From a virus (lineage: Duplodnaviria > Heunggongvirae > Uroviricota > Caudoviricetes), in the IMG/VR virus record IMGVR_UViG_3300042691_019384, positions 44,652-108,651 of that record: a DNA stretch of 64,000 nt. One strand, 5' to 3'. Below, in pieces: positions 33,325 to 34,755 of this stretch. Positions within the stretch are counted from its first letter, which is position 1, and every line of letters begins with the position of its first letter. Under the pieces are notes generated by a model. The model searched no databases, was not told the origin of the DNA, and worked only from the letters and a program-made list of their open reading frames with translations. The position numbers and the translations under genes were made by a program.

Positions 33325-34755
33325 ATGAGTAACTTATTTAACGGTATGACAAGTAATGATACGCTAACAACAAATGGTATGTTGGCTAATAGTACGACAA
33401 GCAATCATTGTGTTGATTTGTTTTTCAGTATTGGTGCGTTAAGAGGTAAACACAATAAGCAAACGTTGATGAATAACTTCATTAAAGCATACCATGAGAA
33501 TAAATTAATAGCACTTAAAATTTTATTTTGGAGTCGTGATGTAAGAGAAGGTGCAGGTGAACGTCAAATCTTTAAAGATGTTATTACTTACCTTGCTGAT
33601 AACGATTTAAATACGTTAATTAATAATATCCATTTAATTAGCGAATATGGGCGATGGGATGACATGTTACCTTTGATTGATACCAAGGCAAAGGATAACG
33701 TATTAACGCTCATTAGAGAGGGTTTAAAAGCCAAAGACGGGTTATGTGCAAAATGGTTACCAAGACCTAATGTTAATAATAAAGATAAAAAACGTTGGGC
33801 TAATCAAATTAGAAAAAGTTTAGGATTGTCACCTAAAGAATATAGAATATTACTAAGTGACTTGTCAAATACTGTTGAACAACTTATGTGTTCTAATAAA
33901 TGGGGTTCTATTGAATATAATAAAATACCATCAAAAGCCATGAGTGATTACATGTCAGTATTTATTAGACATGATAAAGAAAGATTTTTATCTTTTATTA
34001 ATGATGTTAAGACAGGTAAAACCACTATTAAAGCTGGTGCAGTATATCCATACGATATTATTAAAAATATGCGTTATGGTAATAAAGATGGTGCGGATGT
34101 TCAATGGAATTCATTACCTAATTATATGGAAGGTAATAAAAAAAGACTATTACCTATCGTAGATGTTTCTGGTTCTATGTCATGTCCTGCTGGTAGTAGT
34201 AAAACAATAACATGTTTAGATGTTGCTATATCTTTAGGTATATACATTTCTGAAAGAAATCAAGGGTTATTTAAAGATGGTTTTGTTACATTTTCATCAT
34301 CACCGACATTAGAAATACTTAAAGGTACTTTAAGTGAAAGGTTTATCCAAATGAGCAATTCTCATTGGGGTATGTCAACCAATTTAGAGAGTGTTTTCAA
34401 TTTAGTATTAAATTCAGCTGTTAAAAACAAAGTTTCAGCTGATGAAATGCCAGATACACTTGTGATATTGTCAGATATGCAGTTTAATCAAGGTGTTAAA
34501 TATAATACATCTGCACAAGAGATGATTGAAAGGATGTATAATGATGCTGGTTATAAAATGCCTAGTGTTATTTACTGGAATTTAAATGGTGCTAATAATA
34601 ATTTCCCAGTAAAATACGATAAGAGTGGTGTTTGTTTAGTTAGTGGTTTTTCACCAACATTACTTAAAAATATTTTAGGTGATGTTGACTATTCACCAGA
34701 AAAAATAATGTTAGATATTGTTAACTCAGAAAGATATTCAAAAATAAGTTTGTAA
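33325..34755 (+). CDS. rsr: Ro60/Rsr-like protein (TROVE-like N-terminus + vWA domain with MIDAS)
   Basis: C-terminal vWA pattern IVDVSGSMS...TLVILSDMQFNQG...SVIYWNLNGAN...VCLVSGFSPTLLKNIL resembles the Ro60 vWA domain (DVSASM MIDAS); the N-terminal half resembles the start of the TROVE domain; read by eye, needs a profile search. Confidence 0.5.
   Translation: MSNLFNGMTSNDTLTTNGMLANSTTSNHCVDLFFSIGALRGKHNKQTLMNNFIKAYHENKLIALKILFWSRDVREGAGERQIFKDVITYLADNDLNTLINNIHLISEYGRWDDMLPLIDTKAKDNVLTLIREGLKAKDGLCAKWLPRPNVNNKDKKRWANQIRKSLGLSPKEYRILLSDLSNTVEQLMCSNKWGSIEYNKIPSKAMSDYMSVFIRHDKERFLSFINDVKTGKTTIKAGAVYPYDIIKNMRYGNKDGADVQWNSLPNYMEGNKKRLLPIVDVSGSMSCPAGSSKTITCLDVAISLGIYISERNQGLFKDGFVTFSSSPTLEILKGTLSERFIQMSNSHWGMSTNLESVFNLVLNSAVKNKVSADEMPDTLVILSDMQFNQGVKYNTSAQEMIERMYNDAGYKMPSVIYWNLNGANNNFPVKYDKSGVCLVSGFSPTLLKNILGDVDYSPEKIMLDIVNSERYSKISL

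What the first reader, a model, noticed from the sequence alone, without database searches (positions are those of the whole stretch)
33325..34755. Ro60/Rsr-like TROVE+vWA protein encoded by a phage, with no adjacent Y RNA
The C-terminal half has a vWA domain whose MIDAS (DVSGSMS) and downstream blocks line up with the Ro60 vWA domain. Ro60/Rsr normally partners with a Y RNA encoded within a few hundred bp, and in Salmonella lies in an RNA-repair operon with RtcB/RtcA. Here no obvious Y RNA is adjacent. Candidate partner RNAs elsewhere are the long-stem element at 37206-37309 and the tRNA-like elements at 43185-43495. Bacterial YrlA Y RNAs are known to contain tRNA-like modules. Together with the ligase and kinase genes this suggests an Rsr-centred RNA surveillance or repair module.
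Basis: partly seen in the sequence, partly recalled or inferred. Interest (0 to 1): 0.7.

Follow-up and report, generated by a model that had tools for sequence, protein, structure and literature searches.

The report
Phage Ro60-like protein with displaced Y-like RNAs
The gene encodes a distant phage relative of the RNA-binding ring protein Ro60, and although no partner RNA lies next to it, the phage carries two small RNA genes 8 kb downstream of a conserved, apparently undescribed type that sits directly beside this protein's gene in most other phages.

Summary

No Rfam Y RNA or YrlA match exists anywhere in the window. In other phages the gene is flanked, on its own strand, by a conserved small RNA with a 7-bp closing helix, ACAGCAA and a 3' YUG. 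The RNA is either about 65 nt ('mini') or carries a YrlA-type permuted tRNA-like core ('long'). A model built only from other phages finds two copies in the window, at 42469-42534 and 42750-42820. Each has its own phage promoter, and relatives keep copies about 7.8 kb downstream of their genes.

Its candidate partner RNAs are not. Protein-RNA binding and function remain inferred.

The parts
33325..34755 (+). Gene for the 476-aa Ro60-like protein (DUF2828+DUF7788 family, PHROG 850).
33349..34134 (+). N-terminal all-helical TROVE-like repeat domain (about residues 9-270). It includes the conserved T-x-N-G motif (15-18) and the W-x-R-D-V-R-x-G-A-G-E-R block (69-80).
34147..34695 (+). C-terminal vWA domain with complete MIDAS: D280-x-S282-x-S284 (34162-34176), T352 (34378-34380), D384 (34474-34476).
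   Evidence: Pfam DUF7788 over residues 277-457. The MIDAS residues are invariant. Aligned with the Ro60 vWA.
33270..33302 (+). Promoter-like TTTG ... TAtcTTTG boxes directly upstream of the gene. Same architecture as the promoters of the tmRNA and of the mini RNAs.
   Evidence: Alignment of upstream regions. BLAST similarity of 33262-33305 to the region upstream of the first mini RNA.
42469..42534 (+). Mini Y-like RNA 1. Closing helix 42473-42479 / 42524-42530, ACAGCAA at 42482-42488, 3' UUUG. Promoter 17-mer at 42453-42469.
   Evidence: Model R2, built only from other phages: 33.1 bits, E 1.6e-4, best hit in the window with filters off. Promoter motif. Orthologue in L009 and compensatory helix changes.
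42750..42820 (+). Mini Y-like RNA 2. Closing helix 42754-42760 / 42810-42816, UCAGCAA at 42763-42769, 3' CUGU. Promoter 17-mer at 42724-42740. Ends 10 nt before tRNA-Leu.
   Evidence: R2 28.3 bits, E 1.7e-3, second-best hit; the next hit scores 15.8 bits. Promoter motif. Helix covariation.
42549..42621 (+). Possible third, degenerate copy (AGAAU/AUUCU helix, UCAGCAA, CUGU).
   Evidence: R2 only 12.1 bits, E 4.6. It aligns with L009 19345-19411 and shares direct repeats D5 and D9 with copy 2.
41342..41697 (+). Phage tmRNA, the first gene of the RNA-gene island that also holds the mini RNAs. Not shown to be a partner.
   Evidence: Rfam RF00023 48.5 bits. 89% identical copy in L009. tmRNA at the same relative position in L023.
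42831..42917 (+). tRNA-Leu(UAA), immediately after mini RNA 2.
   Evidence: ARAGORN. Rfam 54.1 bits.
43185..43495 (+). Two paralogous tRNA-like RNAs (43185-43286, 43418-43495) have normal acceptor, D and T arms but aberrant anticodon arms. Between them lies a 126-nt element (43287-43412) with an orphan T-arm (43339-43355). Role unknown; not family-typical.
   Evidence: Rfam tRNA 32.5 and 28.4 bits with the anticodon arm skipped. Not called by ARAGORN. Folds. Absent from L009. Only T-arm-level hits to R1.
37206..37309 (+). Not supported as the partner RNA.
   Evidence: MFE -37 kcal/mol, z -3.4. Present only in the same phage and absent from L008 and L009. No R1 or R2 hit.
56743..59144 (+). AAA_33 kinase (56743-57669, Pnkp-like by size and domain; inference) and T4 Rnl1-type RNA ligase (58020-59144).
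   Evidence: Pfam AAA_33 2.3e-10 and RNA_lig_T4_1 1.9e-17.

Best explanation
The gene encodes a phage Ro60-like protein. It has an N-terminal helical TROVE-like repeat domain joined to a vWA domain with an intact metal-binding MIDAS. It belongs to the DUF2828/DUF7788 family (PHROG 850), the commonest Ro-like protein of phages.

I propose that it works as Ro60/Rsr does, as the protein half of a small ribonucleoprotein. Its RNA half would be the 'ACAGCAA' small RNAs: a 7-bp helix formed by the 5' and 3' ends, the motif ACAGCAA just inside the 5' strand, and YUG after the 3' strand. In most phages these RNAs are encoded within tens to hundreds of bases of the gene. Often they carry a YrlA-type permuted tRNA-like module.

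In this phage and its close relatives the RNAs have moved about 7.7-8.1 kb downstream. They lie in an RNA-gene island (tmRNA, mini RNAs, tRNA-Leu, tRNA-like RNAs) and are transcribed from their own copies of the phage's standard promoter.

The particle most likely acts on host or phage structured RNA, above all tRNA-class RNA, or on the host RNA-decay machinery. It would serve phage counter-defence, as its homologue Bas63 gp130 counters the Ppl system.

Shown here: homology and fold of the protein; existence, covariation, strand bias and two-way genomic linkage of the RNA family; presence and promoters of two copies in the window.

Inferred: that the protein binds these RNAs, and what the particle does.
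For: Protein:
- Pfam and PHROG assignment.
- End-to-end profile homology to TROVE/Ro60 proteins: 99.4%, E 4e-21, 406 columns.
- AF2 model pLDDT 81. Foldseek top five hits all Ro60/TROVE, E 1e-9 to 4e-7.
- MIDAS residues invariant.

Family context:
- 711 phage records carry it.
- tRNA genes lie within 3 kb in 12 of 15 annotated lineages fetched.
- Bas63 gp130 is 38% identical, E 6e-106. It counters Ppl, also when moved into T7 (preprint 10.1101/2024.10.10.617714).

RNA family:
- Sub-threshold Rfam YrlA hits with a perfect permuted tRNA-like core lie next to the gene in Whirlwind and phiM7.
- A descriptor scan gave 19 hits against 1.4 in shuffles.
- Long form: 12 of 17 pairs show compensatory changes.
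- Mini form: closing helix 99% paired, 7 of 7 pairs compensatory, 0 of 500 shuffles as good.
- Model R2 gives 73 hits at E<=0.05 in 32 of 48 family loci, all on the gene's strand. In 28 loci the nearest RNA hit from either model (R1 or R2) lies within 200 nt of the gene.
- R2 gives no hit at five canonical TROVE phage loci, which carry Rfam YrlA hits at four of the five instead.
- An RNA-first pattern scan of IMG/VR found a family gene in 79 of 120 loci, 78 of 79 on the same strand, median gap about 82 nt.

Window:
- R2 with filters off scores 33.1 and 28.3 bits; the next hit scores 15.8.
- Each copy follows a copy of the 17-mer promoter that also precedes the tmRNA and tRNA-Met.
- Relatives at 71%, 55% and 53% protein identity keep copies 7.8-7.9 kb downstream of the gene. 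One at 49% has a weak match (21.7 bits, E 0.064) 39 nt downstream.
- Helix covariation within this clade: 96.8% paired, 6 of 7 pairs compensatory.
Against: - No binding data exist. The link between protein and RNA rests on gene neighbourhood and on analogy with Ro60/YrlA.
- In the window the RNAs are 7.7 kb from the gene, so linkage here is weaker than elsewhere. The gene's neighbours in this clade are syntenic in general, so a conserved distance could simply reflect conserved gene order.
- Bas63 gp130 alone protects T7, which has no such RNA. At least that activity needs no phage-encoded RNA.
- E-values of R1 and R2 come from a shortened calibration. The mini model is A-rich and the window is 24-30% GC. 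The main safeguard is the score gap within the window itself.
- R2's training set was found with R1, and many IMG/VR loci are related to one another, so the counts overstate independent events.
- 41 of the 120 RNA-first loci show no gene in the DNA held.
- Ring closure of the shorter N-terminal domain (about 270 aa against about 360 in Ro60) was not checked.
Confidence: 0.6

Rival explanations
1. The protein acts alone as an anti-defence factor. It would use its vWA/MIDAS face or its helical domain to bind and block a host protein or nucleic acid, for example a Ppl-like nuclease. The neighbouring small RNAs would then be unrelated passengers of phage tRNA regions, or regulators of something else.
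For: Bas63 gp130 expressed from a plasmid or inserted into T7 restores plaquing on Ppl cells without any Felixounavirus RNA. vWA/MIDAS domains are typical protein-binding modules (the vWA-only structural neighbours). In the window's clade the RNAs are not adjacent to the gene.
Against: Tight, strand-specific, two-way linkage of gene and RNA across Actinobacteria, Firmicutes, Proteobacteria and Campylobacter phages. The long RNA form is a YrlA homologue, the known partner class of Ro60. Loci with no tRNA genes at all still carry the RNA beside the gene, for example L041-L045 and L029. A host RNA could replace the phage RNA in the T7 experiment.
Confidence: 0.2
2. The ACAGCAA elements are cis-acting parts of mRNAs, such as a 5' leader or operator through which the protein controls its own synthesis. 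They would not be free Y-type RNAs.
For: In many loci the nearest copy lies 20-200 nt upstream of the gene's start codon on the same strand. This is the layout of autoregulatory leaders.
Against: In the cluster L mycobacteriophages, Staphylococcus phage BE22 and loci L041-L050 the copies lie downstream of the gene, often two or three in tandem. In the window and three relatives they are about 7.8 kb away. In the window each copy has its own promoter, and copy 2 is followed by a tRNA. The long form has the architecture of a free YrlA RNA.
Confidence: 0.1
3. The partner RNA is one of the reader's candidates: the long-stem element 37206-37309 or the tRNA-like RNAs at 43185-43495.
For: The stem element has a 5'/3' stem around a large loop with CGAA motifs. 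That is the loose criterion used to pick the Yrl RNAs of phage phiLo (PMC12135203). The tRNA-like RNAs lack a normal anticodon loop, and Y RNAs of bacteria mimic tRNA (PMC4201824).
Against: Both are absent from relatives that keep the gene (L008 and L009). Neither matches R1 or R2 beyond a bare T-arm. The tRNA-like RNAs have ordinary tRNA topology, not the permuted topology of YrlA.
Confidence: 0.07
4. It is a generic vWA protein with an unrelated helical N-terminus. The Ro60 likeness is confined to the vWA fold.
For: No Pfam TROVE hit. Single-sequence and shallow-profile searches of PDB sequences gave only E 0.2-0.4. The shallow alignment A1 aligned only residues 219-450.
Confidence: 0.03

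Closest known systems
Ro60 / Rsr (Pfam TROVE PF05731 with vWA_Ro60 PF25045), including phage phiLo Ro60 (PDB 9l5y, 9kop; PMC12135203)
   Same: Two-domain plan of helical repeats plus a vWA with MIDAS. Homology over the full length and the best structural matches. Gene placed among tRNA genes in phages (Atuin). Partner RNAs of the YrlA type in several lineages.
   Different: About 13% identity. No hit to the TROVE or vWA_Ro60 models. The N-terminal domain is about 90 residues shorter. The associated RNAs carry a distinct ACAGCAA/closing-helix signature and often lack the tRNA-like module. The R2 model finds nothing at five canonical TROVE phage loci.
Bas63 (JohannRWettstein) gp130, Felixounavirus; preprint 10.1101/2024.10.10.617714
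   Same: Same family: 38% identity over the full length, E 6e-106. Described there as structurally Ro60-like and as a counter to the Ppl defence system.
   Different: gp130 lies directly upstream of a cluster of about 25 tRNA genes. A long YrlA-like RNA lies 1.0 kb downstream. The window gene is 6.6 kb from the nearest RNA gene and is linked only with mini RNAs. The window's host and defence target are unknown.
YrlA (Rfam RF02553) and YrlB Y RNAs of bacteria (PMC4201824)
   Same: The long form shares the permuted T-arm / closed acceptor-like hairpin / D-arm core and a 5'/3' closing stem. The mini form resembles YrlB in lacking the tRNA-like module (own knowledge of YrlB).
   Different: Rfam YrlA matches only the core (model positions 23-85) at 35-38 bits, against a gathering score of 69. 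The flanks, with invariant CAGC inside ACAGCAA, are not covered by that model. The window's RNAs give no YrlA hit at all.
Pfam DUF2828 / DUF7788; PHROG 850 'RNA-binding protein'; SEA-PHAGES label 'Ro-like RNA binding protein'
   Same: The window protein is a plain full-length member.
   Different: Nothing differs at the protein level. These entries carry no tested function and no associated RNA.
T4 Pnkp + Rnl1 tRNA repair against anticodon nucleases (own knowledge)
   Same: The window encodes an Rnl1-type ligase and a Pnkp-sized AAA_33 kinase, together with a CCA-adding enzyme, tRNAs and a tmRNA.
   Different: These genes are 22-23 kb from the Ro-like gene and are not linked with it in other phages examined. 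Listeria phage LMTA-34 has an RtcB-type 'tRNA-splicing ligase' 1.3 kb away.

Membership tests
DUF2828/DUF7788 phage protein family (PHROG 850) | Match to Pfam DUF2828 and DUF7788 above the curated cut-offs, and a full-length match to PHROG 850. | tested here: met
   DUF7788 169 bits (cut-off 27.1), DUF2828 130 bits (cut-off 29). PHROG 850 1.6e-151, residues 1-472 against profile positions 1-475 of 476.
Ro60/Rsr (TROVE) family in the narrow, Pfam sense | Match to Pfam TROVE (PF05731) or vWA_Ro60 (PF25045). | tested here: not met
   No TROVE or vWA_Ro60 hit at E<=1. phiLo Ro60 hits both in the same test.
Ro60/Rsr superfamily (remote homology) | Sequence-profile homology to TROVE proteins over both domains. 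| tested here: met
   hhalign A3 against A2: 99.4%, E 4.2e-21, 406 columns, query 9-454 against template 8-475.
Ro60/Rsr superfamily (remote homology) | Ro60 fold: helical repeat domain plus vWA, best structural neighbours Ro60. | tested here: met
Ro60/Rsr superfamily (remote homology) | Closed ring with a central cavity that admits single-stranded RNA ends. | not testable with these tools
The N-terminal domain is about 90 residues shorter than in Ro60, so ring closure is open.
Ro60/Rsr superfamily (remote homology) | Intact MIDAS (DxSxS...T...D) in the vWA domain. | tested here: met
   D280, S282, S284, T352 and D384 are invariant in 61 close and 18 diverse members.
Ro60-Y RNA ribonucleoprotein system | A Y RNA gene encoded next to the protein gene (within about 2 kb in bacteria). 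| tested here: not met
   For the window: no Rfam Y_RNA or YrlA hit and no room beside the gene. The nearest family-type RNA is 7.7 kb downstream. For the family at large the feature is met: 28 of 48 loci have an RNA within 200 nt.
Ro60-Y RNA ribonucleoprotein system | Physical binding of the RNA by the protein. | not testable with these tools
   Needs RIP-seq or gel-shift assays.
rsr-yrlBA-rtcBA RNA-repair operon (Salmonella type) | RtcB and RtcA genes in the same operon. | tested here: not met
   Neighbours are NUDIX, small ORFs and DnaJ. No RtcB or RtcA among the ORFs scanned between 25.4 and 63.7 kb. ORFs of 1-25 kb were not scanned.
YrlA (Rfam RF02553) | Score at or above the gathering threshold (69 bits) with the permuted tRNA-like core. 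| tested here: not met
   No hit in the window. My own long-form model R1 finds only the tRNA-Met/tRNA-Arg junction, a known false-positive type, plus the two mini RNAs.
'ACAGCAA' mini RNA family defined here (model R2) | 7-bp closing helix, (A/U)CAGCAA two bases after the 5' strand, YUG after the 3' strand, length about 55-90 nt, same strand as the Ro-like gene. | tested here: met
   42469-42534 at 33.1 bits and 42750-42820 at 28.3 bits, full model length. Helix covariation in the window's clade.

The most novel reading that the evidence does not exclude
The DUF2828-type Ro-like proteins of phages (711 phage records, against 92 with canonical TROVE) have their own, so far undescribed family of Y-type partner RNAs. 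These are marked by a covarying terminal helix and the motif ACAGCAA. They exist in a long form, a YrlA homologue with a permuted tRNA-like module, and a mini form. Protein and RNA together would form a widespread phage ribonucleoprotein used for counter-defence or tRNA-class RNA surveillance. The anti-Ppl factor Bas63 gp130 would be one example. The window's phage is a case where the RNA genes have been moved into a separate RNA-gene island.
Probability: 0.5. Interest if true: 0.8.

Novelty: new variant of a known kind. Interest (0 to 1): 0.6.

Why it matters
The protein alone is an ordinary member of a large phage family that annotators already call Ro-like. The added value is the RNA side.

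The searches here point to a conserved small-RNA family tied to this protein family. It is absent from Rfam 15 at the sensitivity used. The literature searches that could have found a description of it returned nothing relevant.

If the RNAs are true partners, three things follow:
- Ro60-Y RNA particles would be far more common in phages than the canonical TROVE genes suggest.
- The RNAs give concrete, short, testable ligands for a protein with a reported anti-defence phenotype.
- They would help explain why Ro-like genes sit in phage tRNA regions.

The work also shows that 'no adjacent Y RNA' can mean 'relocated', not 'absent'.

Tried and rejected
- Sequence searches of PDB chains with the single protein and with the shallow profile A1 gave only non-significant hits. 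TROVE chains came top at E 0.42.
- hhalign with the shallow alignment A1 covered only residues 219-450. It was replaced by the diverse alignment A3.
- Rfam found no Y_RNA or YrlA in the whole window at gathering and at E<=10, nor in 42700-43700 alone.
- The stem element 37206-37309 and the tRNA-like RNAs were tested as partners. They are not conserved in relatives and do not match R1 or R2.
- The region 42918-43184 shows no folding signal (z -0.14). The element 43287-43412 is only marginal (z -2.0).
- A three-sequence alignment that included the Rfam consensus (A4) was too inconsistent for a model and was dropped. A descriptor scan and real sequences replaced it.
- Neighbouring proteins (NUDIX, the 73-, 74-, 154- and 218-aa ORFs, DnaJ) were tested as family-wide partners. 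They are conserved only within the window's own phage clade.
- Megablast of 30-45 kb against phage records found no close relative, only two short patches.
- The supplement of PMC4201824 is not held.
- A wrong accession guess for Bas63 gave Bas51. One call failed on a coordinate limit.
- The sigma-70 promoter scan was uninformative (14 found, 15 expected). The phage's own 17-mer was informative.
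Full report
**Observation.** The ORF at 33325-34755 (+) starts with ATG and encodes 476 aa. The identical protein is carried by at least 23 metagenome contigs, including a JGI metagenome sample, some 0.2-1 Mb long. The motif DVSGSMS is residues 280-286. With T352 and D384 it forms a complete MIDAS. All five residues are invariant in 61 close relatives and in 18 members from very different phages. The gene is flanked by only 71 nt upstream and 3 nt downstream. Rfam finds no Y_RNA or YrlA match at E<=10 anywhere in the window.

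**What the protein is.**
- Pfam assigns DUF2828 (1.3e-37) and DUF7788 (1.2e-49). TROVE and vWA_Ro60 do not match.
- PHROGs gives family 850, 'RNA-binding protein', over the full length at 1.6e-151.
- tblastn finds the family in 711 of 50,697 phage records. These include Felixounavirus, KVP40-like, Listeria, Staphylococcus, Campylobacter, Enterococcus and Bacillus phages.
- Cluster L mycobacteriophages also carry it, annotated 'Ro-like RNA binding protein'.
- Canonical TROVE proteins occur in only 92 phage records.

**Is it really Ro60-like?**
- An AlphaFold2 model (pLDDT 81, pTM 0.81) shows about 14 helices followed by an alpha/beta vWA fold.
- The five best Foldseek PDB hits are all Ro60/TROVE structures aligned end to end: 9kop, 9l5y phiLo Ro60, 1yvr, 2nvo Rsr and 9nf8. 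E-values run from 1e-9 to 4e-7, and only then do vWA-only proteins follow.
- I built a TROVE alignment from phiLo Ro60 and 47 relatives, and a diverse family alignment from 18 phages.
- hhalign between them gives 99.4%, E 4.2e-21 over 406 columns, query residues 9-454 against phiLo Ro60 8-475. A shallow alignment had reached only residues 219-450.
- The protein is therefore a remote full-length homologue of Ro60. It is not a member of the TROVE family as Pfam draws it.

**Known function in the family.** The PhageMaP preprint (10.1101/2024.10.10.617714) reports three things about Bas63 gp130:
- It is structurally Ro60-like.
- It counters the Ppl defence system.
- It still does so when moved into T7.

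Bas63 is MZ501086. Its gene 130 is 38% identical to the window protein over the full length, E 6e-106. It lies directly upstream of the tRNA cluster.

**Gene neighbourhood across the family.**
- In 12 of 15 annotated lineages fetched, tRNA genes lie within 3 kb of the gene.
- In 9 of 30 IMG/VR loci they lie within 2.5 kb.
- Neighbouring proteins of the window gene (NUDIX, small ORFs, DnaJ) are conserved only in its own phage clade.

**A linked RNA family.**
- Rfam at a permissive threshold gave sub-threshold YrlA hits beside the gene in mycobacteriophage Whirlwind (38 bits) and Sinorhizobium phage phiM7 (35 bits). Both have a perfect T-arm / closed hairpin / D-arm core. The phiM7 element is closed by a perfect 18-bp 5'/3' stem.
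- A descriptor scan for this permuted core over 804 kb of loci gave 19 hits against 1.4 in shuffles. Seven of the hits are junctions of tandem tRNAs. The rest lie 124-1655 nt from the gene on its strand. They include Felixounavirus, where the element is hidden under an annotated minus-strand ORF.
- All share ACAGCAA just after the 5' strand of a closing helix, and GUGUCUUG-like sequence at the 3' end.
- RNAalifold supports the helices, with 12 of 17 pairs showing compensatory changes.
- Model R1 built from these sequences also recovered many shorter elements that lack the tRNA-like core.
- Sixteen of the shorter elements align cleanly. Their 7-bp closing helix is 99% paired. All 7 pairs have compensatory changes, and 0 of 500 shuffles do as well.
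- Model R2 built from them gives 73 hits at E<=0.05 in 32 of 48 family loci, every one on the gene's strand. In 28 loci the nearest RNA (R1 or R2) lies within 200 nt of the gene, upstream or downstream, often in tandem. Several of these loci are close relatives, so the counts are not all independent.

**Controls.**
- Five canonical TROVE phage loci give no R2 hit with filters off. Four of them, not phiLo, carry Rfam YrlA hits, up to 50 bits over the full model length.
- In the reverse direction, an RNA-only pattern scan of IMG/VR returned 120 loci. Of these, 79 hold a family gene in the DNA kept, 78 of 79 on the same strand, with a median gap of about 82 nt.
- Rfam gave no match over these elements at E<=1. 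The literature searches found no description.

**The window's own RNAs.**
- R2 with filters off scores 33.1 bits (E 1.6e-4) at 42469-42534 and 28.3 bits (E 1.7e-3) at 42750-42820. The next hit scores 15.8 bits. A weak third copy lies at 42549-42621.
- R1 finds no long form, only the tRNA-Met/tRNA-Arg junction.
- Both copies lie in an RNA-gene island between the tmRNA (41342-41697) and tRNA-Leu (42831-42917).
- Each is preceded by the 17-mer TTAGTAWATTTGTAWTA, as are the tmRNA and tRNA-Met. This motif occurs 16 times in the window, always on the + strand, against 1.3 expected.
- The Ro-like gene has a promoter of the same build.
- Relatives with 71%, 55% and 53% protein identity keep R2-type RNAs 7.8-7.9 kb downstream of their genes. 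One at 49% identity has a weak R2 match (21.7 bits, E 0.064) 39 nt downstream.
- Across these copies the helix is 96.8% paired, with compensatory changes in 6 of 7 pairs.

- The stem element 37206-37309 folds well (z -3.4). It lies in a variable insert that is missing from relatives at 89% and 71% identity.
- The tRNA-like RNAs at 43185-43286 and 43418-43495 have good acceptor, D and T arms but aberrant anticodon arms. They are also absent from the 71% relative.
- Neither matches R1 or R2 beyond a T-arm.
- The ligase (Rnl1 type) and kinase (AAA_33) exist but lie 22-23 kb away.

**Mechanism.** I consider it most likely (0.6) that the protein binds the ACAGCAA RNAs and forms a Ro-Y-type particle. 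The particle would act on tRNA-class or other structured RNA, or on host exoribonucleases, in the service of counter-defence.
- Shown: homology, fold, RNA family, linkage, promoters.
- Inferred: binding and function.
- Main caveat: gp130 works in T7 without any phage RNA.
- Precedent: the canonical phage protein phiLo Ro60 binds two nearby Yrl RNAs and dampens host PNPase (PMC12135203).

**Verdict.** The protein is an ordinary member of a known, widespread family, correctly read as Ro60-like. The interest lies in the linked RNA family and in its relocation in this phage.

Noticed in passing
window 41342-41697 (+): Phage-encoded tmRNA (Rfam 48.5 bits) with its own copy of the phage promoter 17-mer. 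An 89% identical copy lies at the same relative position in L009, and tmRNAs lie 5.7-5.9 kb downstream of the Ro-like gene in L023 and L031.
   Followed up: partly
window 43185-43286, 43287-43412, 43418-43495 (+): Two paralogous tRNA-Leu-like RNAs have intact acceptor, D and T arms. One has a 37-nt insert in place of the anticodon arm; the other has an extended stem capped by a tetraloop. Between them lies a 126-nt element with a 12-bp closing stem, two GNRA hairpins and an orphan T-arm (43339-43355). They could be tRNA mimics or decayed tRNAs. They are not conserved in the 71% relative.
   Followed up: partly
window 45189-48405 (+): The CCA-adding enzyme / poly(A) polymerase head domain is split. 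Profile positions 1-72 end ORF 45189-46754 and positions 69-126 start ORF 47491-48405. A homing-endonuclease ORF (46799-47506) lies between them. The first 400 aa of the upstream ORF match nothing.
   Followed up: no
window 59383-60582 (-): TnpB-type gene (OrfB_IS605 + Cas12f1-like TNB + HTH). It is one of only two genes called on the minus strand in this stretch (the other is 35225-35881) and lies next to the Rnl1-type RNA ligase.
   Followed up: no
window, 16 sites, e.g. 20781, 32227, 38543, 41311, 42453, 42724, 50453, 56627: Promoter-like 17-mer TTAGTAWATTTGTAWTA occurs 16 times, all on the + strand (1.3 expected). It contains TAnnTTTG with TTTG about 20 nt upstream, the Bacteroidota-type promoter (own knowledge). 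With 24-30% GC this suggests a Bacteroidota host.
   Followed up: partly
window 37697-37788 and 38079-38133; inverted repeat 37731-37755 / 37941-37965: Two short patches are 93-95% identical to uncultured huge phages (LR756500, LR745206), although the rest of 30-45 kb has no megablast match. A 25-nt inverted repeat brackets the 60-aa ORF 37777-37959. This may be a small mobile element.
   Followed up: no
window 37206-37309 (+): Very stable element: 16-bp closing stem around a loop of about 70 nt that holds an internal direct repeat (CGAAGCAC...TTGATAT twice), z -3.4. It lies in a variable insert absent from close relatives. Function unknown.
   Followed up: partly
L002 7424-7557 (AYO145A) and L052 16778-16911 (Bas63, record 82777-82910): Felixounavirus phages carry a long YrlA-like RNA (R1 83.8 bits) inside the tRNA cluster, about 1.0 kb downstream of the Ro-like gene. 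It overlaps short annotated minus-strand 'hypothetical protein' CDSs, which are probably spurious.
   Followed up: partly
L012 4396-4638 (Cronobacter phage S13): Two unusually long annotated 'tRNAs' (121 and 113 nt) lie 0.5 kb downstream of the Ro-like gene. The region scores 55 bits with the long-form model R1. It is unclear whether this is a tandem-tRNA junction artefact or a Y-like RNA.
   Followed up: no
window 42636-42649 and 42676-42689: Two copies of the palindrome TACC(C/A)TATAGGGTA lie within a 35-nt direct repeat, between the weak third mini RNA and the promoter of mini RNA 2. They may be terminators or a protein-binding site.
   Followed up: no
L014 5350-6506 (Listeria phage LMTA-34): An RtcB-type 'tRNA-splicing ligase' lies 1.3 kb downstream of the Ro-like gene. 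This echoes the bacterial rsr-rtcB link. It was seen in this lineage only.
   Followed up: no
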